DNA of 64,000 bases from Amoebophrya sp. A120. Lineage: Eukaryota > Protista > Dinoflagellata. Shown piece after piece: positions 6,001-41,129 of the stretch. A model generated the notes under the pieces. That model made no database searches. It saw only the letters and a list, made by a program, of their open reading frames with translations, and was not told where the DNA came from. A program made the position numbers and the translations under genes. The DNA lies in NCBI GenBank assembly GCA_905178155.1, contig CAJINV010000001.1, positions 9,631,865 to 9,695,864 of the forward strand, given 5' to 3'. Numbering within the stretch: position 1 is the stretch's first letter; each line of letters begins with the position of its first letter.

Positions 6001-9000
6001 TTTCTGAGCTTTGCGTTGCGTCGTTGCGGCTCACTGCATCCGCTCTCGAGTCCTGAGCCTCCTTGTTTGAAAACGCCGCGACAGTAGAAGCGACCGCTCC
6101 CGTCTTCGCATTTTTTTCTTCTTCAAGTATCTCACCTGTGACGTGTTAATGTACGCACAGCATTGGCGTTAGTTTTACTTGATCAAAATCAGACATAAGC
6201 TATTCCTTCCAGATTAGTTGCACACAACAGAATAGTGAATGTTAACGTTGACATCGAATGATGTGGCATGACTGTGAAAATGACCACCTTGAGCAGTCGC
6301 CAGTAACATTTTCAGTCCAATTCCAAGTATTAGCATTTATTCATACATACCTTCAACTTCAACCGCCCGCACAGCTTGATCGCAGACTTTTACCTCGTCT
6401 TTTCTTCCGAGAGAGGTCCCATCTGCATGCGACTGAGCATCCGTATCCGGAAATGCGTTTGCAGCATGAGCGCCTTTCGTTTCATATTGCACTCCGACTG
6501 CAGGGGGACGCTGCTCACACTCACCAGCAACGATCATTTTCTCTTGGTCGGCAACTACAAGCTTTTTCTCTTGGTCGGCAACAGTCTTCTCGCCCTGGTC
6601 GGCACCAGTCTTTTCTCCTTGGTCGGCAAGACGCATACCTCTTTCTCCAACACCAAGCTTACCTGCTCCAGTTGAACTCCGACTTTCCTTCGCCGGTATT
6701 GAAGTTTCATCTCTTTTCCCAGACTCGAGTGGTGCCACAACCGCACAGTCTCGAGAAGAAACAGCCTGGGTTGCTGGTGCACTCTCCGAGGCGGCGCCCG
6801 ACGGAATTATCGACATAGTTGCAGCTGGTGGTTGATGTTCTGGTGGAGCCTCCGACTTCTGTGCTCTAGCAGCACGCCCGGCTACCGGTCCCGTCGCCTT
6901 CTTGCTGCCTGCCCGGCTTTGTTCAGATTCCTGATTTGAGTGGGCTGGCACAAGCGCCGGCCCTGCGCTTGAATCGCCACGTCGGTCGCGCTTATTTCCG
7001 GTGGAAGTGGTTGCTGTCTTGGAATTAGAACGCTGCTCCTCTCCACATTTCGGAATAGCCAAAGCGACCAAAGCCTGCAGCTCTTCAGCGCTTATCATGC
7101 CACTCTCTTTCGTCTCAGTCTTGGTGTTACCCGGTTGTAGTTCCTCGGAGGATGCGGGTTGTTCTTCCGCCGCGTTCTCCCCAGACGACGCGGTCGCACT
7201 TGCCGCGGAGGTGGCTGGGGCGACGCTCGTGGCAGCAGATTGTTGGTCGTTGAAGATGTTGGAAACACGCTGAACGTCAGGAAAAGTAGAGAGTTGAGTT
7301 CGATCAGCCCATCCAGATGTTGAAACGCGAGGCCCGACAGCTCCCATAAAGTCTTCCCAAGGAGCTGGCTGCTGATAGTCCGCTGATCCTTGATCCGCCC
7401 AAGACCACTGCTCCACCGTCTGATGTGGTGCGCTGCTTGACGCGTCGTGGCCGTAGGGAAAGCACTGGTGCTCCATCAACTGGCTTCCGACGGTCCACGG
7501 ATCTGCGAATCCGAAAGAAGACGCAGCCGGATCTGAGTATGACAGTTAGTTTTGCATACAACTACGGATCACGCCGGCTTTTGCCTCGAAAGAATTGAGA
7601 GGTCGATCCGAGTTACATCTTCAGGAAGGAATGGCGCAGCAACATAATGGATATGCATTCAGTTTCGGAGAGCACTAACTAGAAAACAAGATGAAGAGAT
7701 CATGGTCAACATACATGCGGTGCTCGTTTATACCATGCCTCGATGTCGTGGGAAAGGAGGGAAAAGTAGGCGTGCTGAGCGAGAAATCATTTACGGATTT
7801 CGAAGATGCGGCACAGCTTCCTACGGGAGGAGGATCCATCGTGACCGGACCCATCCAAGACGGGTTGTAATCTGCAGCGCCAATCGTAGCGGAGTAGTTG
7901 GTCGTGCTCAGTTCTTTTGCATTCCAAAGACTCTCAAACAGTTCGGCGTCGGTCACGGACTGGGATTTTGCAGTTGTGTGATTATCCTGTGCAAAAGTAT
8001 CGTACTCGTATAAATCCGCTAAAATTTCTATGCAGAATCTGACGGACAAGTCGGTGAGAAGTCGGTTGCGAAGTTGGTTGCGAAGTTGGTGCGGAAGTCG
8101 GTGAGAAGTGGCGCGCGCCACTTCTCACCGACTTCCGCACCAACTTCGGTGAGAAGTGGCGTCGCGCCGCGACATGCTGGCGTCGTTCTCGCCTCGACCA
8201 AGCGACGCGTCGCGTCACTCCGTCGCTGCGAGTTATATCGTGCTCGCTGCTTGCAGTTGCCACTGCAGCTGCAAGAGCTGGAAGGAACAGCGCTGCAGAT
8301 AAATGGAAAGAAGACCGCAGTCTTGTTCTGTCCGTTTATCTGCAGTGCAGTTTCATCAGTTAGCACGACGGAACCACGCGCAAAGCCGTATACAAGAGGC
8401 GGCAGGCCGCGCGACCGTGATTTCTGCGCGCGCGCATCTGTCCTGCGTGCAGCCATCAAAGAAAGAATCGCCGGAAGCGGAAGACAGCTTCCCTCGGCGA
8501 TGTGGAGCTGCGCGCGGCTTGGGCGGGCAAGCTTTGAACGCCGGCCATTCTCGCCTGGCGCTGATTAATTAATTGATTAGCTGAGCAGCCAATTACTCAG
8601 CTAATCAATTGATATATTGTCTGCGTTTTATTTGTTTTCACAAAAAAACGCGAGTTTGCGTGCGCCCTACATCAAGTAATGCGCAAATCAATAGCTCACT
8701 TCTCAACAACTTCTCCACGCACTTCTCAACAGCTTCGCGACGAACTTCCCGACGCACTTCGCAGCAAGCTTTAAGCTTTTGGAGGCGTCATGCAAGAATT
8801 AGCATGACGCCTCCAAAAGCTCAAAGCTTGCCGCAGAATGCGCCGGAATGTTCGTCGCGAAGCTGGTAAGATGAAGTGCGTAGAGATGTTGTTGAGAAGT
8901 GAGTTATTGCTTTGTGCATTAATTGATGTAACGCGCCGCGCTTGCCGCAAAATGCGGCGTCGGCGTGCTTTTTACGTGCGGCCACGAATCGAGGCCCGGG

Positions 9001-12000
9001 ATATTCCTTCTGAGACGTCCTAGCCGGAAGCCTGTCAGGAGCTTCGCGTGGATTTCAACTCTGCGTCAAGCGTCGGAACAACCGCGGCAAGCGGTCTACG
9101 CCAACTTCTCAACAGCTGGGAAGTTGGTGAAAAGGTTGGGAAGAAGTTGATCATAAGTTGTTGGGAAGTTGGTGAGAAGTTATATTCATGCCAGTAGCGG
9201 ATTTATACGAGTACGATACTTTTGCACAGGATAGTGATCTTCGGGCAACAACGTTTCTCCAGACAGCGGTGCTGCGGAAGAGAAGGATGAAGACGAAGAT
9301 GGGACAATGACAGGTTCTTCGGCACGCGCACAGGCCTTATCTTGATTTGCTTGAAGCTCTTCTACAGCTTGATGATGGGGCTTCCCCGCGGTGGTACTTT
9401 CTGTAGCTTCCTTGATCGTCGTGGTCTCGTCGACGATTTGCTCTCCCACCAGATCGGGAATTGCAGGAGCAGCCTTTTCTTTGACTGCAGTATCACCATC
9501 AGAGGGTCTTTCAACTTGTACTTCAATACATTTCTGCTTCTCTTCCACTTTATTTCCGGCGGCTGAAGCCGAGGGCGCGCTGTTTTCATCTTTATTGCCG
9601 GGGACTGCAATCTGATTTGCGGTGTTTTCCTTTTCGGCAGGGACTGCTACCTGATTCGGGTTGTTTTCCTTGTTTCCGGAGACGACTGCAAACGGCGGAT
9701 TTGCGTTGTTTTCCTTTATTCCGACGGCTGCAGCATCTGCGACCGGATTTGCGTCACTTCCTTTTTTGGTTGCAAATGCAGTCGTATCTGCAGTCGCATT
9801 TGCGTTGCCGGCACTGGCAGACGAACTCGCGGGAATCTGGTTCTGGATCTGGGCCGTATCTTTACCTACCGGGGCCGCCTTATAATCGCCCTTCCTATTA
9901 CTATCTTCCTCCTTGCCAGTTTTTCGCCGCTTTCGAATCTTGTTCATCTCCTCCTCGTCCTCTTCTTCGAGCTCGAAAACACGGCGGGGCTTATCAACTG
10001 GTCCCCCGCGGACGGACTCTTGGCGCGAGCCGGTGCGGTCACGACGGCCGCGGGAATCACGACGGCCGCGGGATTCGCGCCGACCGCGGCCGCCCCGGTG
10101 GTCGTGCCAGCGGTTAATATCGCGAGCGCTCGTATGCCAGTGTTCCCGGTCGTACCGATCGCGGTCGTGGCGGCGGTTTTCCCGAGCGCTTGTATGCCGG
10201 TGGTCCCGTCCTTTGTCATTCGCACTAAACCCTGCAACCCTGGACGAGGCAAGTTCCTGAATGCCCTGCTTGCCCGCCGAGTCATAATCCTTACTGGGAA
10301 AGCGCCCGCGATCCGTACTAGCTCGTTTTCTCCTGCTGCCCTCTTGTTCATGATAATGATCGCGACCTTGTTTATTTTTCGAGAAGTCCGCGCCAGTAGT
10401 GTCAGCCTCCTTGTTGCTTCGTTGTCCTCCCCGCACGCCGTCATAGTTTCCATCATTCTGCTGTTGAGCCCCGTCAGCGAGGGTGTCTTTCCTGCCACGC
10501 CTCATTTCCCAGGAACGTGCGCGCTCATTGACGTGCACGTCTTTCGCGTCGGTATCCTTTCTATCTCGAACTCGATCACGTTTTATGTGTGGGGAACGTG
10601 TGGTCTTTCGATCATGCTGGCGCGGGGAATGCGACCGGCTTCGCTTTCCGCCCTTAGCACTGATTTTTTTGGTGACCGCAGCAAGGCTCTGCCTTTCATC
10701 GTCCAGATTTTTCTTCTCTATCCTTTCGCCGCCAGCAGTGTCAGTGTCTAGCTTCGCCTCTTGTCCATCCTCGTTGTTGTGGTCCTCTTTCGTTTTAGTA
10801 TTACCAACGACGTCGTAGTACGTGCCAGACGCGCTCGTGGTCGCTGCGGGCACAATATCTTCAGATGGCACAGCCATCCACCAGGGCTCCGACGACGCAG
10901 ACAGCGGCGCATCATTTGGAATATTAGCTTGGGGCAGTTCACTCTGCGCTTCACGAGCTAGATCTCCACTCGCTGTCGTGGGGCCTTTCCCTTTATTTTC
11001 CCCTTTCGGCGGGGGAAGGTCGCCTTTGCATTTCCCTTTTTCAGAGCTGCTGCCGAACTTGGAAGTGAAGCTCTTCCATATTTCCTTTTCTTGTTCTTTG
11101 GTTTTTCCCTTGATGGTTGCTGCTGCGCAATTCTTCCCGCCCTTATCGCCTTTCTTGCTTCCCTTAGCAGCTCCACCAGTTTTTCTGCCAGTTGCAGCTG
11201 GCGGCGCAGAAGAAGCCGACTGCGAGTCTTTGTTCGAAATTGCTGCTCCTTTCTTATCCACAGGTCCCTTCCCCTTTTCGACGGAGCCAACCTTACTGGC
11301 GTTTTTTCCCGGCCCTTTGCCTTTCGATCGCTTTCCCTCCCATGGAGCTGGCTCGCGGTTTTTGTGTTTTTCTTGCTCCTGCTGCTTCTCGTTTTCGTTC
11401 GCAGCGTTTGCCTTTTGATCTTGATGTGATTCGCCCGCGTCGTCCAGAGGAATTTTCCAACCCTCATCACGTGCATTCGTACGCGCCGACGCCGTTACAG
11501 TAGTCTTTGAAGCTTTCCGATTTCTATCATGCCCTTCCTCCTTGGAGAGGAGGTCTTTTTCGGGCTTGATCAACGAGTCCTTCAGTGACGCAGACGCGAT
11601 GTTGGGTTTCTCCACTTTCTCCCGCCCTTTGTCAAGCTGTTTTTGCCTTTGGTCGTGCTCAGGTACTTCCATAGCAGTAGTTTTCTTTCTTCCTCGGTCG
11701 CCCTTGTCGGAACAAGCCACGACGGCAGGCACGGAGGGATCAGAAGATTTCTTGTAGTTGGTAGAATCAGTGTGCGCGGCTGCAGTCCCTGGTCGTTGTT
11801 GTGCCTGCTTTTCCTCTGCTTTTTCATTCTTCTCCGCTGCAGCGGCTTGCGGTTTTTTACTAATTCGAGCGGCGGCCACTGTCTCACTCACATGCGCTTC
11901 ATCTGCAACGACGGAGGGAGCAGACTTGTTTTGGACGACCGGATCAGCCGACGAGGCAGCTGAGGCGGGCAATATAGATGCTGAAGCCTTCTCGACAGGG

Positions 12001-15000
12001 TTTCCTGATTCACACGGAGTTTGCACCGGTTTGATGTTGTTCAAACGCGAGTCATTACGGTCACCTTTGCTCTTACCCTGTTCCGCACTAGAGAGCGCTG
12101 CGTCGTTCCTCGAATTTTCGTGCTCTTTGCCTTCGATGTCTGCTGCTGCAACGACGGGCGGCAGAAGGCTACCAACCACAGGTGGCGGTACACTACCTGC
12201 AACCTCCTGCGGCGGCAGGCTGCCGGCAACAACCGGAGGCGGAAGACTAGCGGCAACCGCTGGCGGATGGCTACCGGGAACTTCAGACGCGAACGCGCCT
12301 CCGCCCTTAGTCTTACCCAGCCCCTTCATGTCGCGAAACTTCTTCCTCCGAGGCGGAGCAGGAGCAGGAGGTCGAGGGGCGGCAGAGGGTTCGGCTGCAA
12401 CGGGTGCCGACGCGGCAGGAGGAGGCGCGCGAACTGTTTCGCCGGCCCTTGGCCGCTGAGGTACTTCTAGATCTAATGGAGGGAGGCGCGGGGCTGGCTC
12501 GCGGTACAAAGGCCCGTTTTTCGGAGAGGCACGTTCTAGAATGGATGGAATGTGGCACGAATTCGAGTTCGACCTCCCCCGTGTCTCGGTTTGACCCGGT
12601 TGCTCTGCAACTGGATCTGGAACTGCTGGCTGCATTGTCTTTCGTGCCATGCCCAGCCCAGCTCCTTCAGAAGAGCTCGCACTGCTTGACTGCTGTTCTG
12701 GCTGACCAACGTGGTCGTAGTCGGCGCGTTTTTGCTCCTTCGACTCCTGAACAGCGGGCACCTCGTTTATGCTCGTCTCGCTTTCCAGCACTCGCGCTGG
12801 CACGTCAGCTACGACACAAGGCGCAGATGATTGCTCGGCTTGACGCAGTTGTGCCGCAGAGGCTGTGGAAGAAGACGAAGCAGGAAGGTTTTCTTGTTTT
12901 GTCCCCTCCGGTAATTGAAGACTGCTGCTGGCGCTTTCTTTTTGCAGGCCAACAGCTTCACCACCCTTAGGTGTGCTTACAGAGCAAGCCGCAACCGCAG
13001 CCAGCGATTCAGTTCCTGCATCTTCTTTATTTCCCTTAATTTCCGTCGATTCCTTCGCCAGTTTTGGCGATTTAGAAGCCAAGTCGACTTCTCCAACGTC
13101 GGCAGGGAGTAGAGGCTCACCCTCTATTGCCGCATCGGCTTTTTCTTTTTGTGCAGGAGGAGAAGGCGGGGGAATGTTCGTGTTGCTTTGGACTGGTGCT
13201 GGAAGTGGCTGGTCCTGCGGTTCTTCCTTGCTGCTGTGCACCTGTGCGTCGCCTGGGACTGGGCCTGGCGCTGGGTTTTTTCCTACGATAGATGTTGCCG
13301 TTGCCGCAGCAGCAGCATCTGCGGTAGCCTGGCCGCGCGATTCCTTTTCGCAGTCTTCACTTGACTTTTCCACTGTTTTACCCGGCAGCTCCGCCACTTT
13401 ATCATCCGCGGTTTTAATTTTATCGACTTGCGCAACTTCACCACCAGGGGTGAACTTCTTTGCTTCATCTGTGCCTTTGACAGGTTTCTCTTGTGCTACA
13501 GCATCTGTCAGTTGTAAAGCGGAGCTGCCTAAAGCAGGGTCGTCGTGCGATTCCTTCTGATTTATGGTGAGCGAGCGGTCTTCTACTGCTGCAAGCTTCG
13601 CTGGCGCAGCAACCTCTGCAGTCGAGCGCCGCGGTTCTTCTCGATCAGCAGCAGTTTCCGGTAGTTCCCACGCTGGCCTGCCCGCTGCCACTCCCTCAAC
13701 GCCGCCAGTGACAGTTTCTGTGTCCGGGACCGGATTTGCTACATGCGCAATCATTGCATTTTGATTTGCGTTTTCATCTGCCCGCTCGACGAGCTGCGGT
13801 AGACTCGGAGGCTGCTCTGGCACCTGCTCGCCCGCGGCCTTCACATACGGCCCTGGCTGCTGCAGCGATTGTTCCTGTGGCACTCTGGTACTTGCTTTCA
13901 CATCTTCATCTCCGGCTCCCGGCGATTTTGTGGCTCCCGCATCTGGAAAAATTGCGGACTTTTCATCATCCTCAGGAGTGTGCGACGCTGCTTCCATTTT
14001 CTGCACTGGGTCGTCTTTCGCGAGAGCAGCCGCATCTTCCCTGGCCTTAGGCTCCGCTCTCTCGCCCGTCGCCGGCACAAGCGGCCCTGGCGGCTGCAGC
14101 GACTGTTTCGCTCTTGTACTTGCTTGCGCGTCAGCGTCTTCCGCTGCAACCAATTTTTTGGTTTCCGGAGCTGGTTGCACCGACTTCTCATCATGATCTC
14201 CAGAAGTTGAAGTGTGCAATGGTGTTGCTTCAATCTTAGTGTTCTTCACTGGGTCAGGTTTCGAAAGAGCAGCCGCATTTTCTCCGGCCTTAGGCGGCGC
14301 TGCATCCCCCGCCTTCACAGGCGGCTCTGGTTGCTGCAGCGATTTTTCCGCTGTCGTGCTTGCTTTCACGTTTTCATCTTCGGCTGCCGCTGATTTTGTG
14401 GCTTCCGCGTCTGCCAGAATTCTTGCGGACTTTTCATCGTGATGATCTCCAGAAGTGTGCAGGGTTGCAGCTTCAATCTTATTCACTGGGTCGGGTTTCG
14501 GAAGAGCAGCCGCATCTTCACTGGCTTTAGGCGGCACTACCTCGCCCGCCCTTGCAGGCGGCCCTCCTGGTTGCTGCAGCGACTGTTGTTGTTCGTCCGC
14601 TCTGGTACTTGCTTTCACGTCTCCATCTTCGGCCGCAGCCAATTTTTTCGTTTCCGGAGCTGGCCGCACAATTGCGGACTTCTTATCATGATCTCCAGCA
14701 GGTGAAGTGTCGTGCAATGGTGTTTCAATCATGTTCACAGGGTCAGGCTTCGCAAGAGCAGCCGCATCTTCTCTGGCCTTAGGCGGCGCTGGCACAGTCA
14801 CGCGATCGCATTCTGGCCATACTTTGGCGGATAGTTGATGCGAAGATGGCACAGAAAGAACAGGTGGCGAGCTACTCACTACAGCTGGTGCGTCCTGCTG
14901 CTTGTTGGTGCTCCTTGCTGCATCATCAAGAACATTGACATTCTTATTCGGATCATCTGCTGCTCCTGTCGCTTTTACCGATGAATTAGAATTGCAAACC

Positions 15001-18000
15001 GCCGGAGCCGTGGCATCTTCCTCCTTTTTGACAAATGCAGGCGCGGCGGCAGGAGCGCTTGGGGTGTTACGCGCCACCGCCTTTAGAAAAACTCCTTGCG
15101 CGCTTTCGAGCAACTCGGCAAGTAATTTCTGCTCCTCGGGCAAGACCCCCACCTCGCGGCCCATGTCCTGCACCCGCTGCAGGTTCTGCGCTAAGATGTC
15201 CAATATTGGACTGCCCTCTTTACTTTCGTTTTGCTTGCCAGAGGAGCTGGAGCTGCCGCCCTGATCATGCGTCTCAATATTTGAAGCCGGGCGTGCCGAC
15301 ACCTCAGGAGATATTTGCTCCTGCTTAACGTTCACGTGGGGTTTCGCCACAACAGAAAGAGCGTCACCGTCGTCTTTCGGCATCGATATTTCAAGAACGG
15401 GGACGTCGACGTTCGCGGCGCTGCATGAAATCTTTGGGTGTGTCGGCTCCACCAGCTGCTTGACATCGGTGGTATTGGCCCGGTGCTGTTCCGGCTTCTC
15501 GCCCGCCCTGATCGAAGGAGTGAGCTGCGCCTGCGCCATCGAAGGGTTATTGCTCTCCTGCTCTGCTAACTTTGTCTCCATTCTTTCATCCTGCTGGTTA
15601 ACATCAACATCGTTTAAGCGGCTCTTCGTGAATTCAGTTGAAGGCTTGCGTCCGGTCGATAGCTTTCCCTCCACGCGTCCAGCAGCTGATGGCAGCTCCT
15701 GGTGCACGTAGTCCTTCGTCAGCGCTTTCTCGACCAACAGACCCTCGGCGCCGGACGCAGCTTTACTAGTCGTCTTCAGATTGAAAATATCCACATCATC
15801 AACAAGCTCATCAGCACAAAAACTCGTGTCCCGTTCCTGCATCCCCGTGGACTCCGGCGCGGCTTCTCGATCTACTGCCACTTCAACGCTCTTAGTACCT
15901 CGGCCCGCTTGACTATCGACCGCGACTGCTGCACCCAACTGGGCCGCGTCATCTGGCGAAACGGAAACTTCTGGAAAGGCCTCTTGCAAACCTCCACGTC
16001 CCCCCTCGGTAGGGGGCACGGCTGGCAACACTGATTGCGTAGAAGCTCCCGGCCGCTCCCGCTCCGCCGCTTGTTTGTTGTCCTGCGAAAGGGGCTGGAA
16101 TTGCAGTTCTCGCTCTTTCGTAACCTCGCAAAGCGCAGCCTCGGTCTGCAACAGATTCGGACGCTGCTCGGTTTTTTCTTCATTTTGCTTGTCCGCCTTG
16201 ACCTTGTCCGCCTCGACGCCAGGCTTGTCATCATCACGCACCACGGACACTGCTCGATCAATGATGTTGCTGTTGACATCGGCTGCTGCTTTTTCCGGCA
16301 ACTCTGCCTCGTATCCAGAAAGTTTTTTCGCGTCCTCTTCGGACTTTTCCTGCTGCACATTTCCTTCTTTTTTCTCCACTGAAGTAGCCGGAACAAGTTG
16401 TGGCTTCTTCTCAACATCAAGCGAAACCGAGAGCAAGCCCTGACTGTCATCGAGATTCTTCTTCGCGTCTTGTTCAGCGCCAATCGCAGAGAGGCCGACA
16501 CGGTTGCCGTGTAGACCACTTCCGCTTGCCTTTACGACTTCAACCTCATTTTTGTCGTCCTGCTTAACCATCGGCTCGTGCTGGTTCTCCGTTGCCTCTT
16601 TCTCCGCTGCGGTCCCCCTAGCGGGCACGTCGACGATTTCGATTTCCTGCTGACGCCCTTGTAGCTGCTTTTGCAAATGTCGGCTGGTGGTGAATTCCTC
16701 TCGAATAGGAATCGCAGTCGGTGTCGGTACACCTACCGCTAACGGCGCGGAGTCCGACGCTTCCTTGCTGTGCAGGTTCAGTGGTTCTCGCGCAACAGGT
16801 TTTGACTCACGCTTGTCATTTTGTATGTGTTTTCCCTCTTCCGCAAAAGCTGGCTCTCCCTTGTTTGCACTTTTCTCCGGGATGTCTTTAGCCGGAACAG
16901 TAGAGGGCAGGGCTACAGGTTGTGGTTGATGTACACCGCTTGTTAAATCTCGACTAATTTTCAAATCGTCAACAGAATTTTTGCGCGGGGCTGTGGGCTC
17001 GTGCTGAGTGATCTGTGGTGCGGGTGCAAGTAGTGCGTCAACAGCTCCCGCTTCATTATCTTTATTGACCGTAAACTGGTCCTGGTCGTCAATCGGCGGC
17101 GATTCGAGACGGGGAGAAACGCTTCCTGCATTCTTCTCCGTATGGTGCATTAACGCCTCTTTCTCCGGTGATCGAGGCTTCATCGGAGGAAACAGCGCGC
17201 CCTCCTTATTCACCAGGGAATTCTGCTGGTTCACGAGGTTACCATCTTCCGCCGGAGTTGTTGCGTTGTCCATTTCGAGGTTAGCTGGCAAGACGCACTC
17301 TTCCGTGGCTTTTCCCACAGCTTCGTCCGGCTTGTTGTCGTTGATACTAGGCTGGAGCAGGGAAGTAGTGATCTCTTCTGCATTCTGGCCGTCCATGATC
17401 GCGCCCACTGCGTCTTCAAGATCGCGGGCACCGCCTCCGTCTTTAGACAAACTGGATTCGGCTGCGACACGTGGTCCGTTCTGCCCTGCGGATTCAAAAC
17501 TGGTACTGGGCTTCTTTTCTTCTGCAGCATCACCTGGATTTTGTGGAAGTGAAGCTTTCTCTCCAAGTTCGACGCTGCCCTCCTGGTCAACATCCATCAT
17601 ATCCGCCCCTCCTGAAGGGTCCTTCAGTTGTAGTTGAGCTGGTTCGTTTTCCCCGATGATCCCAGTAGAATTTGCGATCACGCTGCCATCCTGCTCTCCT
17701 GTGCACACCTTGTCAGCGGGTGCGCGAGGGGCGTCTGGGGGTGTAGGAGCAAGGTCTTCTTTCGTAACCCTGACGCTCGAATTCCCTGGCGAGTGCTGCA
17801 ACGACGAATTATATCCGTCTTGCTGTTCATCTCGTCTCTGATCAAGGCGCGCAGGCAAGTCCGAAGTGACCGCTGGATTCTTCAACGCTCGATCTGCAAC
17901 ATGCACGCGCGCTTCGCCATTTTGCACAGGCTCCGGTGCGGACTTCAGCGGGCCACCGGGAGCGAGTTGAGAGCAGGAAGGCCCAGGTTGCAATGCGATA

Positions 18001-20487: not shown

Positions 20488-22054
20488 AGTGGCTTTGTGG
20501 CAGGTACGACTACGAGATAAGCAGTGCACCAAAAAAGGCCAAAGTCGATGTGCTGCTGGAAGATCCAATTGCTTACTCCGCGGAAGAAAATCAAGTTGTA
20601 GATTTCGTTTTGGTGCTAGCGGCCACAGCTCCGCAAAACACACTAGAACACGGTCGCAGATTCGGATCCTCGTGCTGCTGCTCGAAATCTATTTCACGAA
20701 CTCGTAGAATGGGTGAGCAGGATCGTCGGATTTATGTCCGACTTTTCGTTCCCAACGAGGAAAATTCGCGAATCACATGCGCCGCACCGACTCACTTTGT
20801 AGCCAGGTACCGCTCCGCACACGTTCGCGCCTGATGTCCGAGGAAATTCTGCTGATTCAGTTTCAGGAGGGGGCACCTCCTTCGTCGTGTGTCCGCGCTT
20901 TTTTCTTTTTGTTCTTCGGGGAAAACAAGCAGACTGTCGCGCAACTGCAAGACGATCAATTACTTAATCAAGGGGATGAGTAGATGTCCCGTAGAGAGGT
21001 GGACCCGAACGTAGAATTTAGTCGTGCGTTGAAGAAGTGCTTCAGACGGAGGGAGGGGATCTCGGATCAAGACGACCAACTTTCTCCACCGTACAGATGA
21101 TGTCAATAATTTGGGGCTGGCACTAAAATTCAGATGTACGCAGCCAAAGAAAAGAAGTCGAGCCTTCACACGATGACTTCATTGTCAGTCTTGGTCCATA
21201 ACGACCGCCATTCCATGATAAAAATGCCGTAACTTATCAAAGCAAAACCAATCTTTTTTTTACCCGACGCTTCTATGAACCAACTCTAAGTTGAGTAAGA
21301 GTACCGGTTTAGAATCTCAAGGCCTGGCAACCATGAAGAATGAGCGAGGTTTCTTGATGCTCGCGGAAATGATTAAACTCACAAAAACTGCACACGTGGC
21401 AGTGGGCTTCTCTTTCTACATCTAACTCTACTGATGTGGCTACTCCAATACGTACACACTAGTCACAGCATTGCTGGAGTGGATCTGGATGCCGATGGCA
21501 AGTTGTATCTCTAGGACACACAAGAGACCATCTTCACGGCAACAAGAATGGAACAATGCGCTGCGTGGGTACGATATCCTTGAGCGAGCTGCGATCTTTC
21601 TGATACTGTGTGTATTCACGTCGACCGTTCACGATGTTTGCGGCCGCACACCTCACTACTCATGTATGAAGATCACGGGAGGGTCGCTTTCGCCTAAGTG
21701 TTGTACTCGATGGGATCATAATGGGAATCGTGCTCGCTCGGCTGAGCAACGCGTTTTGAGTTGTAGGAAACACTATTAGAGATCGATATCATGAGTTCGT
21801 AGAACACGAGGAAGTGGCCACTTGCGTACGTGCCACGAAGAAGGGCACAGCTTTTTGCTTTTTTGCGAAATAAAAAGTGCATGCGCTTGCACGTATTACT
21901 GAGTGTCGTGCTCGTCGTTGACAAGAAAACAAAGGTGTTATTCCGGCGTCGTAATTGCGTTTGCGAATGCGGATGCGCTTCCAGCATGGCGGGAAAGTTG
22001 CATGTATAAATCTCAACAAAGTAAGCCAAGCATCGCAAAAGTCTCTCACACTCT

Positions 22055-24860
22055 TCATCCCTTGGTATGTGCACGCGGACCCAGTTCGCCTCCACCTTGC
22101 GCCAACAGCTCCGGCGGCTCGCTTTGCACGTAACCGTACTCTTCGCTGTAAGACACGCCATCGATGGTAGCGCTGCAGTTGGCGGTGCAGGTATAGAACA
22201 GAACCGTGCCGAAGTCATGATGCGTATTCGCGATCGCAATCATGGAGGGCAGCAGCTGGAACTCGAATGCCCGCGGCGCGCCGCAGCGTCGACAGGGGGG
22301 GATGCGATCCGGCCGTGTGTTTTCCTTGTCTTTCTCGTGGTACCAGAGGATGAGATCCTCTGGCGTTGTGATAGAAGACAAGGCCGCCATTCTGTCCCCT
22401 GCACTGCAGCCGCTGTTTGGAGCAACGATAGTACTACTATCATCTCCATCAGGAACATCTTCACCGTCTGGCCCTCGACGCGCGGGCGTCGTGGTCATTG
22501 ACAGGTTTTCGTCCACCAGTTTCTCCGTGATGAGTTCCTCGGGGGGAATCTGTGCGTTCTCGCGCAACGCGTTCTCAAGAACTTGCTGTCGCGTTGGATG
22601 GAGCGGAACTCTGTGGGCGGGTCGCCGACTGCGGGAGGGGGAAGAAGCGTTCGAGGATGTGGTCGTTTGCGGACTGCGAGTTCGCGTTGCACCATGATCC
22701 TGTTGTGCTCGCACGTTTGAAAGAAAATTGCTTGCAGCTCCTGAAACCGTGGGCGGTTGCTGGAGATTGATATTCTCTGGCACGGTCGTCAAAAAATTAA
22801 CATTTCGGCTCAAGGCGCCATCATCGGACATGGAGCGAGCCTTGGTCACCAGCGTAGAAGAGGACGGGGTGCTATTGGTCCTCTGCGCGTGCGCCTCCTT
22901 CAGGCGCTCATTGGGGCTCTTCCCGTCGACTCCGAGAGCGGTTTTGGGCACTTGGGGTGTGGATGGGCGGTCCTGGATGTAGCAGCCCTGAATGCGTTGC
23001 ACCTCGAAGTTCTGCACTAGCTGTTCCTTGCGCTCCGCTTCCTGGCTTTTCGTTGCGGAGATTGTGGGCTTGTTGCTGCTGCCCGCCGGCGGCGGTGTGC
23101 GGGTGGCCGGAAGAAAGTTTTTGCGCATCAGAGCACTGATGGCGTCCGTGTTTTCACTGTCGTCGTTTCGTGGAGGGGCGGACAGGCGTCGTTTCGGCAG
23201 GGGTGACGGCTGCAGGACCGCTGAGGCGGGGGAGTTGTTGTTGGCCCGGCAGCTGTAGCTGTCGTCACAGCCAATTTCGGAGCCGCTGTTTTCATCTTCG
23301 ACCTCGATCTCTTCGTCGTCCTCCTCTTCCCTGGGTATCACTACGCGCAAAATGCATCGCGGCCGCCGCAGACACTCCTTTTTGAACATTCGAAAAGCCG
23401 GATCGTCGTCGCGGCCGTGCGTCTTTTTCCATTCTTCAAAATATGCCATTTCCGACGCATCCAGCTGAGGCGACTGTTCCCCTTTTGCGCTGTCGGGCGT
23501 CGTCGTAGACAGATCCTTCGCACCAATACTACTCTTGATCTTTGTCTTTTGCGCAGACGAGGACGGCGTCGCTGTTGTGGTGGTGCTGCTACTGTTGGTG
23601 CTTTCGCCATTCCCATTTTTTTGGAATGAGGAATGATCAACTGTAGTCGTCGTCACCGTCGCAGTACTGTCTGTTGCACATTCTTGCTCCGCCGTCGTGG
23701 GGAAGACCTGCACGTTGCCATTCGCCTCCTGGTACTCCCGAAACAGTTCCTTGTCCCGACGGTCTTGCAAGACCGCGGCGAGATCCACCTCGTCGTCGCT
23801 TGACGTGCCCTCCTCCTCGGTGCTCGAATCGGCTTCCGCATCTATTTCGTACTCCGAAAGCATGGCCAGATCTGCAAAACAAATAAGTTAAAGTTACGTC
23901 TCAATCTCGAACTACACGTTATTTGATTTCTACCTAGATTGTTCGTCTCTTGCAGCATGTTGTGTACCGAAACCTTCTACCCATCGAAGGTAGGAATGCG
24001 AACTCATCGCATCCCTTTTCATCAAGAAATACGAAACAGGTTGGAAAGTTTATGTTTAGAAGTAAAAAACTAAAAGAGAAACGTTCGTTACCATTAGGTT
24101 CCTTCGTGCCCTTGCTCCAGCTGCCGTGTCGGTAGAGGTCCATTACGTGGGAGACCGAGGGGAAGTTGTTCGGGTTATCGGGGAGATAATACGGGTTCAG
24201 CCTTGGTAGTTGCGCCCGGAAGCAGCGGAACTGGTCGGGGCAAACGCGGCAGGTGAACACGTAAAGCATCCTGTGAAAGGCTGCCGGGCTGGCGTCCTCC
24301 CGGCTGGCGTAGATCTGCAGCAGAAACCGCATCCGTGACCCGCACTATTGAGAGGAAAAATCCCCCCTCCCCATATTGAAAAGGCATGTTTCCGAAAATT
24401 TGCGTTGCTGATTTGAGGCCACAAATCACATTTGTTTTGCAAGAAGGCAAGGGCAGAAGCTTCCGCCCCATTATGGAAGCGACTTGTCATGCTGTTGGGC
24501 CTAAAGCGGAGCCGCTTGCCATGCTGAACAACTAGACGCGTACGCCCCTACCTAGCCTGGGGACCTGACTGCAATGCTTTCCTGCAATACAAAGCTGATT
24601 TGTGTACTCAAATCCAGCATCAGAAATTTCGTCTTGATATGGGGAGGCGGGATTTTTCCTTTTGATACGCACCGTGCGCACGTCAGGTCCGTTGGGTAGT
24701 TTTCCGGCACCAACCAGGCCGGCTTGCCGCCGATTTTGCTCGGAAAATAGTACCGCGTGAGTTGCCGAATGTCTTCCGGCGGGTCACGATACAAATAACC
24801 GAACTCCACGGCATTCTGCGTGGCGGGTACTACGGAGGATACCATGTTGTGGGCGGCCAT
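22055..24860 (-). CDS. PDCD2: Programmed cell death protein 2 family (PDCD2/Tsr4-like uS5 chaperone), 3 exons
   Basis: N-terminal FPSKIGGKPAWL..TCARC-GSRMRFLLQIY..FHRMLYVFTC..FRAQLPRLNPYY and C-terminal IPPCRRCGAPRAFEFQLLP..DFGTVLFYTCTANC..YSEEYGYVQ. Intron 1 is element 24346-24667 plus one TSD; intron 2 is canonical GT-AG at 23872-24091. Confidence 0.88.
24346..24667. mobile_element. TIR introner-like element 2 (322 bp), TSD CGCAC
   Basis: Left end TATTGAGAGGAAAAATCCCCCCTCCCCATATTGA versus reverse complement of right end TATCAAAAGGAAAAATCCCGCCTCCCCATATCAA; the imperfect IR extends ~100 bp. CGCAC lies at 24341-24345 and 24668-24672. Removal restores the conserved C-A-R-C-G-S-R-M-R-F-L-L-Q of PDCD2. 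Confidence 0.92.
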
Positions 24861-26286
24861 GCTGTTCTTCCTGGGATCAGCTCCTCTTGTCAGGAGCGTA
24901 GCATAGAACTAGAAGAGGTATTCTTTGATACGAATACTGAAAAACTGGTGAATAAAGCGCGCGAAAATGGAGGACCAATAAAAGCGGCTGCGCAAACCAC
25001 ACTGACTTCTATGCTACGGGCTCGTGATCTGGATGATATGTCTCCATTACCGTTTAGCGAGAATAGATAACGTAGTGCAATGTATGAGCCACCACGACCA
25101 TTACCATAAGTTCTCGCTGAAAGACTGTGACCACGGGAGGGAGCTGCAGGACATTTGTGTTTACTAATGAGAACGATCAGATCGCCATTTCTCTTTTTCC
25201 CTGATCAAATGGCTGCCAAATTCAATATGCGCAGGTATATCGATTTTCCTTGCTGGTCTATTTGCAGCTGAAGGGACTTCTACACTCTTATTTTCAGCTT
25301 TGAAAAACCAGATCATATTCTCCATGCTGGGCCAGGGGTACCATTCCATGTTGGAACATGAAATAAAGGATCCTGGCGGGGCACACTAAGTAAATTCTGA
25401 TCAAGAAAGTTAAAGGCGACAAGAAGACCTGCTGCCTGCTTCCCAGCATCGATTCTACTACAGTGTCAAATCCTCTCAAAAACAGGACCGAAAAAATCCA
25501 TGGTAATTCACTGCTCATTTGATCACACTGCTTGGGCATGCTCTGCGTCAAACACATATATTTTAAGGCACTTCGCTTCATCGCCATCGAGTACCTTTTC
25601 TTTCTCCACAGCTTTATCAAGTACTTTGTCGTGTGTTTCATTTTGCGCAAGGATCTTATCTAGTATTTTACATTCTGAAGACCTTCATAACGTCGGTGCC
25701 GCCGTTTTTCTTCTGTGTACAGGCATGCTGAGTCAATTTCATTTTTTTCTATTTACCACTTTTTCGCTTTATTTCAATATCAAGTGGCAGCTTGTTCTAT
25801 TTACGTCGGGGCCTGGGACGACCAATTTTTTACAAACTAAATCTCAAGGCGGGTTTACTACGCCATGATGATCGACGATAGCATAGCGCTTGCGCTTCTA
25901 CTAGCATAATTTACAACTTCAATTTCAGTTTTTCATTTTCGCATCCTATCAATCTAGATACTTTAGTGCTGCTTTCTACGAAACTCACATTCACGACCGA
26001 GTACGAGAGGAGCGAGTAGGAAGATCAGAGATTTCTAGTATCACTGAAAAGCACTCAGCGAGGTGCCTGCTGGCGGAGGAGGTGCTGCAGAATACTTTCA
26101 TAAAATCTTGCTATTGATCTTTTTCTTTTTGGTTCCCTGCTTGTTGAAACGGAATCGAAATTTGTCCTTGTAATGCTAAAGTTGTTCTTCTTCTGCCTGC
26201 TACTTCTGTGACTGTGCTACTTCTCTTCAAAACGTACATGTTAATTTTCTAGGAAACAGGTGAGAGAATTTCAAACAAGCAAGATG

Positions 26287-29200
26287 CTACGAGCTGCTCC
26301 CGAAGATCGGTATATTGCCAAGGACATTTCCCACGCCGCCAAGCAAATCGCCACAGAGGCCGCACATGTTGCCCAAATCGCAACCCATAGCCGGCAGGTT
26401 TGCACACGCTCCCATTTCACAGGGCATACACCCCTCCGAACACAACACCGGGCACGATGGGCACATACCGACGCCATACTCCGGAAGGCACCAGCAGCAG
26501 CACGGAGTCCCCGCCGGGATCCCGAACAGCGTCGGCGTGTAGAAGAAGGTTTCCATCATCGCTATCTGGCAGCACGAGTCGCAACAGTAGACGCAACAGC
26601 AGCAGCAGGGATCCATTCCACCAACGCTCCCACCATACATTCCACCGTATCCGTATCCTCCTCCGTAATACTGCGCCCGCGTCGGCCCCATGTATGCCTG
26701 CGACGGCGCTGCTGCATTGGGTTGCCATGGTGTGAAGTCCTGGTTCGTGTTTTATTGGAGCTGCTCGTGGTCGTGCTCGAAGGGGGAGGGCATTATACTA
26801 GTACTTTACAACTTACTACACATCACCGACTAGCAAATCGAAATCAGGAGGATGAAACAGAAAATCAATCTGTATCTGAATCTTCTTCTTGTTCAAAAAA
26901 AAAAAAGACTTTACCTGCATGGCCCCCGATGCTGATGCACGGTTGATTTCGTTCATCCGCATCTCCTGCTGCGCCGGCGGAATGAGCTTACTGATGTGCG
27001 CGCTTTTCTCCGCGATCTTCGGGAACTTTGCTGGGCAAAGCTGGTGTTCTGTGTGGCTCTTTTCCTCCTTACTGCAGTCTACGCCCTGCGCTTCCGTCGA
27101 CAGCGTCGGCTGGCAGGTTCCGTACTCGCGTAAGTACATGTACACCGTATCCGCGTTTCCGTCGGCGCCAGCCTTCTCGTCCAGCAGAAACAACTCTTCC
27201 AACTTCAGCGGCAACGACGGGAGTTCCGGAAACTCGTCCGGGAGCCGCTCCAGCACCTCGTCCAGCCCTCCCACCTTGGGCTCGGGTGCCCCCGGCGGGA
27301 GCTCGAGCGGCTCGAAGTGCGCGAGGACCTGATCCGCCAGGGCCCAGATGGCATCCGATACCTTGGTCATTTCTTTGTTCAATACGGCCGCGATGTCGCG
27401 CTTGCTACTGCTGTCCTTGCTGATGCTCAGTGGGGCCGCGGCGCGCGCTAGGTTGTCGAACTTCCCCTCGATGGCCGTCATGGACCGAAGATTGACCTCA
27501 AAATCCAGGTTGTGCATGGTTTGCTTGAAATTCTCTCGGAATTTGATTTTCATGTCCTCCTTGGCCTCGTGCCGAGCGCGCTCGGCCAACGTTTCGTTCG
27601 AAGAAAGGTAGTCGCGCAAAGTATTCCACGCGCTGGATCCTTTCTGCTTGGATCTTGCCGTCGTGGCCGTCGTCGGGGGGATGGGCCTTGCTTTCGCCAC
27701 TCCAGGGTCGAGGTCCTTTTTGCTTTCCGAGTCGTGATGCTTCCGCGCGAGGGGGTGGAAGATTGCTTTTTCCTGGAACGGAAACAAGACCATAGTCCAG
27801 TCCTGCGTCACTCCCGCCGGCTTTTTGGGTCCGTCGTCCATCTCTTTCATCTGCGGGAAAATGCGGTCAAACGCTTGCTCCACCAAAGCATTCAGCAGCT
27901 TCTCGACCTTGTCGCCCAGGGCCTTGCGCGTCATCCCGATATCCACAGAAAAAAACCTAAACCTGTCCACATCCATTTTTTGCATCATCATAATCATGTA
28001 GTGAATGTTTTTTGCATGACAAGCACAGGAATTTATGTATTTTTTGCATGACAAATTGGATGTGGATGGGTGTTTTTGCCTGGATACCCGATCACGGCCT
28101 GGTCGTCCAGGCCCCACAGGCTGAACGTCGTCCACCCGCGGTGGTATTTCGGATTCACCGTTAAGTGGGTGCGAATCCAGGTCCCGGACCGCTTTACTTC
28201 CGCGCGCAGCACATCCTTCAGCCGGTGCAGAAACGAGGCATCCAGTGTGACGTACCCGGTGCCCCCCGGGACGTCGTGGAGTCGGTAGATACGGGTGACC
28301 GCCTCCCGCGGCACCATGCGCGGCGTCTTGTCGAGCACCTGGTACGCGGAGGCCGGTACGCGGAACCCGTTATGGAAGCGTCAGGTTTGAAATCGTCAAA
28401 GTGGAAATGATTTGTGATGCATGAAATGCGATGCAAAAAGGACTGCATTGCAGAGGACGCCATGGAGGCCGACTATTGTCCTGCTAGGGGTGAAGAATTG
28501 GAGTGCTGCTTGGCACGACAGAACGGCACCCCTTTGCCTTATCCTGCATGACAGAGATGCTTTAAGTGCTCGGGAAATTTGTCATGCGCCGACTACAAAC
28601 GCCGCTTCCACTGGAGTCGCTTTTTTGCATCACAAATCATTTCCACTTTGAGGATTTCCAACCTGAGGCTTTCATACCCGTCGGCGACGACGTATTCTTT
28701 CGGATCCGCGGCCTTGAGACCGCTCCCGGGGACGGTGTGGCCCAACTGCTTAAGCCGCTGCATCTCTCCGGTTTCCGGTGCGTTCGCGTCTACCCGCAGC
28801 ACGGCCCCGGGAAAGCACATTTCCCGTTTTGCTTGCGTCGGGGTTGTGTAGTTGTCCAGGTGCGTCGCTTCCAGAAAACTGATCAGGTCGCCGGGTTCGG
28901 CCCTGCCGTACACGAACCGCAACGGCAGCTCAAATATGCTTCCGCCTTGTTCCAGCAACACCATTTGCACCTCGTTTTTCTCGAACCGTTTCCGAATTTT
29001 TCCGACCTGGTCCTGCAGCCTGGCCAGCAAACCCTCCTTGCCGCCGGCACGGACAATCTCCTGTCGCTGCATCAACGGATCCACGCACTTTTCCCATTTT
29101 GCTGTCGACGCCCCCTCTCCCTTTGTTTTGCGAGCAGACGTACTGTCCTCTTCTTGCGCTAGGAACGCGTTTTGTTCTTCCGCAGCTGGACCCATTGGTG

Positions 29201-30715
29201 AAGTTCCGTCTGCTTGCACGAGCATTTCATCGCCCCCTCCATCGTTGTTCTTCGACGTGGTCGAGCCTCCTGCTCTAGCTCCTCTACGCTGCCGCAAGCT
29301 GCTGCTGCCGCCGAATGTCCGCGGCCTCTGCGAGGAGGACGAAGATTCCATCATGGTTGTTGTCAAACCGGTATTTTTCCAAGAACCGCTCGGAGAAAGC
29401 GCTGGTATCTCCCCGGTTTCGCCCATGGTTTCCGCAATCATTTCTCCAGTCTCCCCGCGCTCGTCGGGTGCGTGGGGCGTGCGCTCCTGCTCCTCGTGGT
29501 CCATCTCAGCTGTTGGTCCCCCGGTCTCCAGAAACGCAGTCGACGACGGCCCGTCGAAGGCGGCCGTGACATCGGTCAAAGTCGGCGGCGGCCGGGGTAC
29601 ATTACATTGCACTTCGCGCACCAGACTGGCAAGGGCCGGATCCACGAGCTGGGGGAAAACTATGGGGCTCTCAAACGTTACATTCTCAACTGTTACATGA
29701 TTTGTCATGCAAAAACGCTATCACTTTTCACAATTTCAAACCTTCTCCGCATGACAAGTTCTCGACACGCTAGATAGCATTGTAATCTGCTCCAAACCTG
29801 TAATGCAAAAGGAGCAAGCTTTTCCCTTTCACTTTTGCCATTCTTGCATTACAAATTTCATGTAACAGTTGAGAATGTAACAGTTGAGAGCTCCATAAAA
29901 ACGACCTGCACTTTGCGGTTCTCGATATTTGGGTTGCAGTACTCCTCGTTGACGAGGCACACGTCCTGGTGGCCGTCCTTGCTCAGAAACTTGCCGTGCA
30001 GTGCCTCGACGTGATCTTCTTCGTCAGCGTTTTCCTTTTCATCCTCGTTGTAATTCGCGTCCGGGACAAGGTCTTGCGACAAATCGGGCGGGTAGAAGAG
30101 CTCCGCGAGCGCGCGCTGCATGTTGCGAATCGCGGGCGCCAGAGTGTGTGGGTGGTGTGCTTGCTGTTCGACGAGCTCCAGGGACTTCTGCTGGAACGCG
30201 GCGATCTGGTACTTTTGGTTTTGCAGATCGGCCGAATCGCGCATCTGCGCCACGTAACCGGGTGGTAGCCCGTTCAGGAAACGCGAGAGAAACGGCACGT
30301 CAAGAAGAGTTTCCTTGTACTCCAGCATGGCCTGCGTCATCAACTGACTCGCCGGCTCGCCCGGGTACCGCGCGAAACGGATCCACTGCAGAAGGTCAAT
30401 TGCGCTCAAGTGCAGAAAGCTATTCTGCCTCACAATCGCGGCCTCTGCATCCCCCGCTTCGATGAGGAGATCATCGCGTCGCAGGCCTTCGTCGTTCTCT
30501 TTATCCTCCGGCACATCAGCCACAAAGTCAAAGGCTGTGTGATCGTCGTTTTTCTTCGCGTTACCATCGTGTTCTCCCGAAGAAGGCGCTACGCCGCGGC
30601 TCAAAGTATCCAATGCAGCGAGGCCAGAGATCACACGGCAGGCAGAGCAATTTGCAACAGCTGGCTGTTGCTGAGGCGCTACTGATTTCCTCGACCGACC
30701 AAGGGACGCTGACAT
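26287..30715 (-). CDS. Hypothetical protein with Gly/Tyr-rich then Cys-rich C-terminal tail; 5 exons, three introns are TIR elements
   Basis: ORFs 29858-30715, 28593-29708, 28033-28338 and 26816-28135 fuse in frame once the elements are removed (KVQVV-FPQLVD, VVADG-FRVPAS, QAVIG-MTRKAL). A putative GT-AG intron at 26740-26914 links GAMQ to DFTPWQ...MGPTRAQYYGG...PCCCCCVYCCDSCC. Confidence 0.7.
27940..28086. mobile_element. TIR introner-like element 3 (147 bp), TSD CCCGA
   Basis: Ends are TATCCA...TGGATA with an inner TCCACATCCA/TGGATGTGGA IR. CCCGA lies at 27935-27939 and 28087-28091. The frame is restored on removal. Confidence 0.85.
28371..28676. mobile_element. TIR introner-like element 4 (306 bp), TSD CCCGT
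   Basis: 51-bp TIR with 4 mismatches (TATGGAAGCGTCAGGTTTGAAATCGTCAAAGTGGAAATGATTTGTGATGCA). CCCGT lies at 28366-28370 and 28677-28681. The frame is restored on removal. Confidence 0.92.
29661..29897. mobile_element. TIR introner-like element 5 (237 bp), TSD AAAAC
   Basis: ~55-bp imperfect TIR (TATGG[G/A]GCTCTCAA..GTTACATTCTCAACTGTTACATGA..TTTGT[C/A]ATGCAA). AAAAC lies at 29656-29660 and 29898-29902. The frame is restored on removal. Confidence 0.92.
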
Positions 30716-37247: not shown

Positions 37248-37599
37248 GATTCGGGTGACGGAACAAACACACTCTAGGAAACTGCCATGGCGTCACATCC
37301 ACACGAGCACGAGTCAGAAAGTATGAGTGTAGCTTTGGAATGGTAAATCTCTCGCGTAACCCTCGAGCAACGTGGTTTGGTGTCCGAATCCGCTGTGCTC
37401 GCCCCTTCCTCTGTCTTCTTGTAAGCACTTAGGTATCGATGTGAAGTATCATCTAGGCCAACTCTGTTTGTTGCTACAACGCTTCGGCTAACTATGGAAC
37501 GCGAAGACGACTGAGTGACGCAACAACACAATGAACGCCACACATACGCGCGGACGCTCGTCGTGCTTCAGAACTCATATCAATTAGATAGGAAGCAGA

Positions 37600-40883: not shown

Positions 40884-41129
40884 GGTTTGGAAGTCGTCGT
40901 CCTCGCTGCTGTGTATCCAGGAAAAAAAGTGTGTAAGTGTACCTTTCTTTGAGAAACAGCATCACAAATTTGCTCTACATGACAGAGAAAACCTGTCATG
41001 CGTGGCTTGTAAGGGAAAACACACATGAAAAGAGGACTTCATGGCTGTCTGGCATGACAGGCGTAACTCTGTTGCATGTTCTGCAACACAAATTTACACT
41101 TACACAGTTTTTTTCTTGCATACTATGCC

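What the first reader, a model, noticed from the sequence alone, without database searches (positions are those of the whole stretch)
7978..29902. Five TAT...ATA TIR elements with 5-bp TSDs act as non-GT-AG introns in three genes
Seen: elements at 7983-9233, 24346-24667, 27940-28086, 28371-28676 and 29661-29897 begin TAT, end ATA, have inverted ends, and are flanked by exact 5-bp duplications (GTGAT, CGCAC, CCCGA, CCCGT, AAAAC). Removing the element plus one TSD (1256, 327, 152, 311, 242 nt) restores the frame every time, including at the conserved CxxC of PDCD2. None of the six possible registers across the TSD gives GT-AG or GC-AG for any element. Established (from memory): IR/direct-repeat introners with non-canonical ends, including TAT-initiated families, were described in Amoebophrya, and the removal mechanism is unresolved. 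Inference: the stem formed by the TIRs, not splice dinucleotides, defines the cut sites, so a DNA transposon family is precisely removed at the RNA (or DNA) level.
Basis: partly seen in the sequence, partly recalled or inferred. Interest (0 to 1): 0.85.

Follow-up and report, generated by a model that had tools for sequence, protein, structure and literature searches.

The report
Amoebophrya hairpin transposons removed as introns
These are small DNA transposons sitting inside genes of the marine parasite Amoebophrya A120; three are missing, with one copy of their 5-base flanking repeat, from a likely transcript although they lack normal GT-AG splice signals, a published oddity of this genome whose cutting machinery, likely a modified spliceosome reading the element ends, is still unidentified.

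Summary
All five TAT...ATA elements, their inverted ends and exact 5-bp duplications are as stated, and no register gives GT-AG or GC-AG. The window is Amoebophrya A120, where such introners were published in 2021, so the phenomenon is known. One RNA-like contig skips elements 3-5 by exactly 152, 311 and 242 nt, while DNA-like contigs keep them. Elements 1 and 2 rest on the public annotation and, for PDCD2, on the A25 orthologue, not on reads. A sixth element was missed (40914-41122). Additions from 115 loci of a second assembly: the duplication is 5 bp (165 exact at 5 bp, 4 at 4 bp, 1 at 6 bp); 57 of 64 coding-flanked copies fit keeping one duplication; copies up to 96% identical lie in both orientations in genes (13:12 in one family). 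Against a pure-stem model: positions 4-8 pair poorly, A-C mismatches outnumber G-U on the transcribed strand (52:22), and one end type favours the 5' side (24:5). Best reading: RNA-level removal guided by the hairpin plus end sequence. Machinery and transposase remain unknown.

The parts
7983..9233 (-). Element 1, 1251 nt, perfect 39-nt inverted ends, 5-bp duplication at 7978-7982 and 9234-9238; ends match a ~150-nt family, interior holds nested palindromes
   Evidence: removed as 1256 nt in the public annotated protein P0001; no read evidence of my own
24346..24667 (-). Element 2, 322 nt, duplication at 24341-24345 and 24668-24672, inside the CxxC of PDCD2; very high-copy family
   Evidence: summed DNA depth about 33,000 against 27 in unique bins; annotation removes 327 nt; A25 orthologue has the same CxxCGS spacing
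27940..28086 (-). Element 3, 147 nt, duplication at 27935-27939 and 28087-28091
   Evidence: X1 contig skips 152 nt; fold z -2.5
28371..28676 (-). Element 4, 306 nt, duplication at 28366-28370 and 28677-28681
   Evidence: X1 contig skips 311 nt; fold z -7.8
29661..29897 (-). Element 5, 237 nt, duplication at 29656-29660 and 29898-29902
   Evidence: X1 contig skips 242 nt; fold z -10.5
40914..41122 (-). Element 6 (not in the finding), 209 nt, duplication with one mismatch (40909-40913, 41123-41127); constrains the cut register
   Evidence: 214 restores the frame, the 215-nt GT-AG reading does not; annotation removes 214; X1 piece ends at 40908
7012..18764 (-). Host gene 1: 3192-codon open frame running into element 1, continuing after it; annotated protein P0001 covers 9947-7012 only; no Pfam family
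22058..24860 (-). Host gene 2: PDCD2 (752 aa, PDCD2_C), three exons
25715..30803 (-). Host gene 3: 4209-nt contig-supported transcript with a 1183-codon open frame, holding elements 3-5 and one canonical intron; no Pfam family
26739..26913 (-). Canonical 175-nt GT-AG intron skipped in the same contig (may lie up to 4 nt further on); internal control that the contig is spliced RNA

Best explanation
These are non-coding, multi-copy DNA transposons with TAT...ATA inverted ends and a 5-bp target duplication, and the element plus one duplication copy is missing from a likely spliced transcript, likely cut out of the pre-mRNA by a modified, U1-independent spliceosome that would read the hairpin together with sequence signals carried by the symmetric ends. 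Shown: anatomy, high copy number, exact skip lengths in one contig for three elements, no GT-AG register. Inferred: (1) a DDE transposase making 5-bp staggered cuts, possibly integrase-related, inserts them with little target preference; (2) because both ends are the same motif, either orientation presents TAT at the 5' side and a pyrimidine-rich run before ATA at the 3' side, while the well-paired inner stem (positions 9-30) brings the ends together; (3) the cuts fall at a fixed offset, near the 5' TAT and 3-5 nt past the 3' ATA, so the original exon is rebuilt whatever the target sequence. This would make insertions nearly harmless and explain the invasion of coding exons.
For:: X1 record 1 skips 152, 311, 242 nt and a canonical intron; X5 keeps all element-flank junctions at 19-27x and shows no such joint; annotation removes 1256, 327, 214 nt; A25 PDCD2 spacing agrees; exact repeat length 5 in 165 of 288 end pairs (4 bp: 4, 6 bp: 1; the 288 include cross-pairings between neighbouring elements); 57 of 64 confidently coding-flanked copies need 5 (mod 3) bases kept (p about 2e-20 against 1/3); 1 of 57 has a canonical register, 10 of 57 have neither a GT/GC start nor an AG end in any register; duplication sequence near random; both orientations (13:12, 2:6, 3:4, 3:3, 3:3; two small families 4:0 and 2:0), opposite-orientation pairs 87-96% identical; strand caller right in 124 of 125 held-out tests; 3' side 70% pyrimidine. 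U2AF, SF3B, PRP8 and U1 proteins listed for A120; U1 snRNA not detected; a relative with canonical introns has U1. (abstract): in tunicates a modified spliceosome handles non-GT-AG transposon introns.
Against: No test here touches the chemistry; spliceosome involvement is by analogy. No branch point was sought or found, and one working in both orientations is not demonstrated. X1 is only guessed to be RNA and is one contig from one sample; two raw RNA runs laid 0 reads (no test). Elements 1 and 2 have no read support here and have in-frame GT-AG alternatives; 22 of 57 related copies also have one within 9 nt. The register rests on one piece boundary whose joint row was not displayed. TAT is not absolutely conserved (26 of 182 elements differ at one end). 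No transposase was found. The orientation result is inferred from a codon model on an assembly whose organism I did not establish, without RNA.
Confidence: 0.5

Rival explanations
1. Removal is RNA-level but non-spliceosomal: an endonuclease and ligase recognise the base of the hairpin plus short end motifs, as suspected for euglenid nonconventional introns.
For: No donor, acceptor or fixed dinucleotide; both orientations; strong hairpins; U1 snRNA not detected; Euglena introns are excised by unknown machinery with paired motifs at a fixed, asymmetric distance from the cuts (abstract and opening).
Against: A nearly complete spliceosome is present and canonical introns are removed from the same transcript; the 3' side looks like a pyrimidine tract; no such enzyme is identified.
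Confidence: 0.25
2. One reading: pairing of the inverted repeats alone sets the cut sites, with no role for end sequence.
For: Positions 9-30 are well paired; some copies carry a changed TAT with an intact duplication, 2 of 17 of them in a frame-consistent coding setting.
Against: Positions 4-8 are the worst paired; A-C exceeds G-U on the transcribed strand 52:22 in positions 1-10 (per-element sign test over positions 1-30, 30:13, p 0.014); A at position 5 is at the 5' end only in 24 copies and at the 3' end only in 5 (p 5e-4), seen both in the element-2 family (15:4) and in the others (9:1).
Confidence: 0.12
3. The junctions are reverse-transcriptase template switches across a hairpin flanked by short direct repeats (a known library artefact; own knowledge), and real transcripts keep the element or use cryptic GT-AG sites.
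For: Hairpin plus direct repeat is the classic setting; only assembled short-read contigs were seen; element sequence with foreign flanks is also present in X1; cryptic in-frame GT-AG pairs exist for some elements.
Against: Retention breaks the frames; element 4 has no in-frame canonical alternative within the 20 nt searched; 35 of 57 related copies have none within 9 nt; PDCD2 needs the exact join to match its A25 orthologue.
Confidence: 0.08
4. The elements are excised from DNA in expressing cells, like ciliate internal eliminated sequences, leaving one duplication copy.
For: The product (one repeat left) is what precise excision would give; X1's nature is a guess.
Against: X5 contigs carry every element-flank junction at unique-copy depth and none of the empty joints (contigs drop rare variants); X1 also lacks a canonical intron and has zero depth in two intergenic bins, as RNA would; no germline/soma nuclear split is known to me in this parasite, so excision would lose the elements.
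Confidence: 0.05

Closest known systems
Amoebophrya A120 introner elements (Farhat et al. 2021, PMC7789003)
   Same: Same genome (window proteins 100% identical to A120 entries); TAT-initial inverted repeats, short direct repeats, scattered non-canonical splice pairs, hairpins, unresolved mechanism.
   Different: No difference in kind. The text gives direct repeats of 3-5 nt and an unknown border; here the repeat is 5 bp once ends are set at TAT/ATA, and both orientations and an end polarity appear. Its supplementary figures S19-S25 could be seen only as legends and may already show part of this.
IS3EU/GingerRoot DNA transposons (PMC10045372, PMC6839031)
   Same: TA..TA termini, terminal inverted repeats, little target preference.
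   Different: Their duplication is usually 6 bp, here 5; no transposase found, so membership is not shown.
Euglena nonconventional introns (PMC12501133; review PMC11282704)
   Same: Non-GT-AG, paired ends, duplication-like repeats, suspected MITE origin, longer unpaired stretch on the 3' side.
   Different: The CDG/CH'G signature is absent here; cuts here lie inside a true 5-bp duplication.
Fritillaria non-canonical introns (PMC13326754)
   Same: Genome-wide escape from GT-AG beside a conserved spliceosome core (abstract).
   Different: There U1 is present and U2AF is duplicated; in A120 U1 snRNA was not detected and one U2AF65 and one U2AF35 are listed.
Micromonas and Aureococcus introners
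   Same: MITE-like TIR elements with a target duplication that become introns.
   Different: They carry or co-opt canonical GT/GC-AG sites; 1 of 57 copies here has a canonical register.

Membership tests
Amoebophrya A120 introner elements | Lies in the A120 genome | tested here: met
   P0002 and P0004, named A120 by NCBI, match the window at 100%
Amoebophrya A120 introner elements | Inverted repeat pairing the two ends | tested here: met
Amoebophrya A120 introner elements | Direct repeat of 3-5 nt at the boundaries | tested here: met
   5 bp, exact in 5 of 6 window elements
Amoebophrya A120 introner elements | IR begins TAT, seven variable bases, then at least three A | tested here: met
   TAT in 6 of 6; the A-run in 4 of 6 (absent in elements 4 and 5); A in 112-121 of 126 ends at positions 11-14
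Amoebophrya A120 introner elements | Repeated in the genome | tested here: met
   summed contig depth 2,758-32,968 over elements 2-6 against about 27; element 1 depth not measured, its ends recur in 19 of 115 loci
Amoebophrya A120 introner elements | Removed from transcripts at non-canonical sites | tested here: met
   3 of 5 in one RNA-like contig; the other two by annotation only
MITE (non-autonomous TIR transposon) | TIR, constant TSD, no coding capacity, many copies | tested here: met
   three ORFs inside element 1 have no Pfam match
MITE (non-autonomous TIR transposon) | A cognate autonomous element with transposase | not testable with these tools
   no whole genome held; none among exact-TSD elements up to 2.5 kb in 115 loci (longest ORF 137 aa in the two longer than 400 nt)
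IS3EU/GingerRoot | TA..TA termini | tested here: met
IS3EU/GingerRoot | 6-bp target duplication | tested here: not met
   5 bp in 165 pairs, 6 bp in 1
IS3EU/GingerRoot | Integrase-related DDE transposase in that clade | not testable with these tools
   no transposase in hand
Canonical U2 introner (Micromonas/Aureococcus type) | GT/GC-AG in some register across the TSD | tested here: not met
   0 of 6 in the window, 1 of 57 in related loci
Euglena nonconventional intron | N3-CDG at the 5' end paired with CH'G near the 3' end | tested here: not met
   read off the sequence: registers 0-4 put TAT bases in the motif; register 5 needs G at position 6, seen in 4 of 126 ends
Spliceosomal intron | Lariat with 2'-5' branch, dependence on U2/U5/U6 | not testable with these tools
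   needs experiment

The most novel reading that the evidence does not exclude
Amoebophrya A120 has a second, non-spliceosomal or radically rewired mRNA splicing route that removes a transposon from any exon position, in either orientation, at a fixed offset from its TAT...ATA ends, restoring the target sequence exactly; the mobiliser is an undescribed 5-bp-TSD relative of IS3EU/GingerRoot. That would be a transposon made invisible at RNA level without needing any host splice signal.
Probability: 0.3. Interest if true: 0.8.

Novelty: already known. Interest (0 to 1): 0.42.

Why it matters
The elements are published, but how tens of thousands of introns without GT-AG are removed is not. A constant 5-bp duplication explains why published splice pairs look random: aligners place the junction anywhere within the repeat (inference). 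It also makes the question testable. Copies with a mismatched duplication give the true cut register from existing RNA-seq, and opposite-orientation twins and end polarity say which features to mutate. A sequence-independent, precisely removed insertion would matter for intron origin and as a tool.

Tried and rejected
No whole genome is held. No RNA holder is on record in the run list; raw RNA runs X8 and X9 laid 0 reads, which is no test. The joint of element 2 was not among the 15 of 40 joints shown (X1 depth there 2-4), and element 1 has no read data. Pfam scan: 1 of 12 frames matched (PDCD2_C). Rfam: 0 matches. Element 1 end in viral contigs: 0. Earlier findings: none. G-U enrichment as a sign of selection on the RNA stem: tested, result opposite. 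General strand skew as the cause of that: interior composition is balanced, A 2976/T 2951, G 2580/C 2520. Co-option of a G before TAT as a GT donor: 23 of 57 against 28% background, p 0.054, not established. Whether a changed TAT is tolerated: 26 of 182 elements had a non-TAT end; I kept 17 with a substitution and the duplication in place and dropped 9 with shifted offsets or a mispaired partner; 4 of 17 had confident coding flanks, 2 frame-consistent, against 57 of 183 for intact copies (p 0.16): inconclusive. Register from mismatched duplications without RNA: 8 cases, no pattern. The 215-nt GT-AG reading of element 6 breaks the frame. Literature: six searches and word look-ups in three papers turned up no statement of the mechanism, of both-orientation insertion in Amoebophrya or of an IS3EU link; the library lacks most subscription papers, and Roy et al. 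2023 (Curr Biol) was not read.
Full report
Observation. All five elements are at the stated places with TAT/ATA ends, inverted termini and exact 5-bp duplications. They are the five best-scoring TAT..ATA pairs with a 5-bp repeat (50, 38, 34, 34, 14) against a best of 11 in 20 shuffled windows. No register gives GT-AG or GC-AG. Removing element plus five bases restores long frames, but so does any length equal modulo 3. In-frame canonical alternatives exist near four of the five, among them a 324-nt GT-AG reading of element 2 and a 1241-nt one of element 1. A sixth element with a 4-of-5 duplication lies at 40914-41122.

Identity. Searches with window exon pieces returned proteins named Amoebophrya sp. 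A120 at 100% identity and a GSA120 gene model. Farhat et al. 2021 (PMC7789003; seen: abstract, passages, sections 10 and 16, supplement passages and part 3 of 5, figures only as legends) describe these elements: inverted repeats starting TAT in A120, direct repeats of 3-5 nt, 29,850 repeated introns, scattered splice pairs, U1 snRNA not detected, transposases found only in A25, mechanism open. Gozashti et al. 2025 (PMC12130899; passages and part 16 of 33 of one table) list 15 of the 21 A120 families I saw as TIR DNA, superfamily unknown; two of its 14 files were not searched. The phenomenon is therefore known.

Removal. On 21500-41400, one 4209-nt contig of run X1 (guessed RNA) skips 152, 311 and 242 nt at elements 3-5 and also a 175-nt GT-AG intron. 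Run X5, with flat 27x depth, keeps every element-flank junction and shows none of these joints; its depth over the elements is 2,758-32,968, so they are multi-copy. The joined contig holds a 1183-codon open frame. Runs X8 and X9 laid nothing. For elements 1, 2 and 6 the public models remove 1256, 327 and 214 nt. These are annotation, probably from related RNA data, so not independent proof. For PDCD2 the A25 orthologue (CRRCGSQMGFLLQ) matches the 327-nt join (CARCGSRMRFLLQ) and not the one-residue-longer GT-AG form. Element 1 is the least secure.

Register. X1 record 4 ends at 40908 without differences. The tool places joints leftmost, so with a 214-nt skip the mRNA keeps the upstream copy's base at the mismatched third position. 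The cut then lies 0-2 nt before the 5' TAT and 3-5 nt after the 3' ATA. This is an inference from one boundary; the joint row was among the 25 not shown.

Family-level tests. A 24-letter end motif found 115 loci, all from one public assembly (JACKZZ01), 301 kb. It shares element families with the window at about 66-85% identity; I did not establish its organism. Of 288 non-redundant TAT..ATA end pairs, which include cross-pairings between neighbours, the exact repeat length was 5 in 165, 4 in 4 and 6 in 1. Of 198 with at most one mismatch, 183 had flanks, 73 passed a codon-model confidence filter, 64 of these agreed in strand, and 57 needed 5 (mod 3) bases kept. One of the 57 has a canonical register. 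The duplicated bases are near random. Families lie in both orientations relative to the host frame: 13:12, 2:6, 3:4, 3:3, 3:3, with two small ones at 4:0 and 2:0 (6 of 262 edges inconsistent in the largest). Opposite-orientation pairs are 87-96% identical, including element 2 itself against L072. The strand caller was right in 124 of 125 held-out tests, and the called strand had the longer frame in 49 of 57. None of these loci has RNA data.

Against a pure stem. The elements fold strongly (z -2.5, -7.8, -10.5), but pairing is worst at positions 4-8, next to three A-U pairs. On the transcribed strand A-C mismatches outnumber G-U 52:22 in positions 1-10, the opposite of selection for RNA pairing. 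Position-5 A sits only at the 5' end in 24 copies and only at the 3' end in 5, in both the element-2 family and the rest, while interiors show no strand skew. The system tolerates either orientation but is not blind to it. The A-run of the repeat gives a pyrimidine-rich 3' side (70%) in both orientations. Whether TAT itself is needed is unresolved.

Mechanism. Best supported: insertion by a DDE transposase with a 5-bp stagger (inferred), and RNA-level removal at a fixed offset from symmetric ends that supply both a hairpin and sequence signals. I put a modified, U1-independent spliceosome at 0.5, because its proteins are listed for A120, it removes canonical introns from the same transcript, a relative with canonical introns has U1 (PMC12005148, passages), and tunicates offer a precedent (PMC13326754, abstract). 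A non-spliceosomal endonuclease-ligase, as suspected in Euglena (PMC12501133, abstract and opening; PMC11282704, passages and section 5), gets 0.25; stem alone 0.12; template-switch artefact 0.08; DNA excision 0.05.

Transposon affinity. TA..TA termini fit IS3EU/GingerRoot, but those make 6-bp duplications (PMC10045372 and PMC6839031, passages). This is a lead, not a membership; no transposase was found.

Verdict. Real, and a known class in its type genome. The added points (constant 5-bp duplication, both orientations, end polarity, one register constraint) were not found in my searches (PMC9860276 passages) and sharpen an open question. Interest 0.42.

Noticed in passing
window 40914-41122: Sixth TAT...ATA element with a one-mismatch duplication, in a gene annotated at 1863 aa; removed as 214 nt.
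   Followed up: yes
window 8032-8148, 8662-8936, 9117-9181: Element 1 interior has a perfect 34-nt-arm palindrome, a nested 275-nt palindrome and a recurring subterminal repeat; only its outer ~46 nt match the ~150-nt family, so it may be a composite or closer to a parent element.
   Followed up: partly
window 9186-18764: 3192-codon open frame with ~240-nt tandem repeats at 13.8-14.8 kb and no Pfam match; the public model starts only at 9947.
   Followed up: partly
L005:632-1465 and L030:765-1461: Longer members (834 and 697 nt) of the ~260-nt family with exact duplications; longest frames 137 and 136 aa, not searched.
   Followed up: no
window 54096-55323 and 62423-63392: Paralogous segments about 8.2 kb apart at 71-77% identity.
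   Followed up: no
window 33159-33624: A joint with 38 other letters and linked variants appears in both X1 and X5, suggesting a tandem paralogue or allele not in the window.
   Followed up: no
window 31504-32082: An inverted repeat with a 4-bp direct repeat and non-TAT ends; X1 runs through 31618-32296 unbroken, so it is not removed.
   Followed up: partly
L001-L115: 198 elements cover 56 of 301 kb, often several per gene; the loci were chosen for holding an element, so this overstates density.
   Followed up: partly
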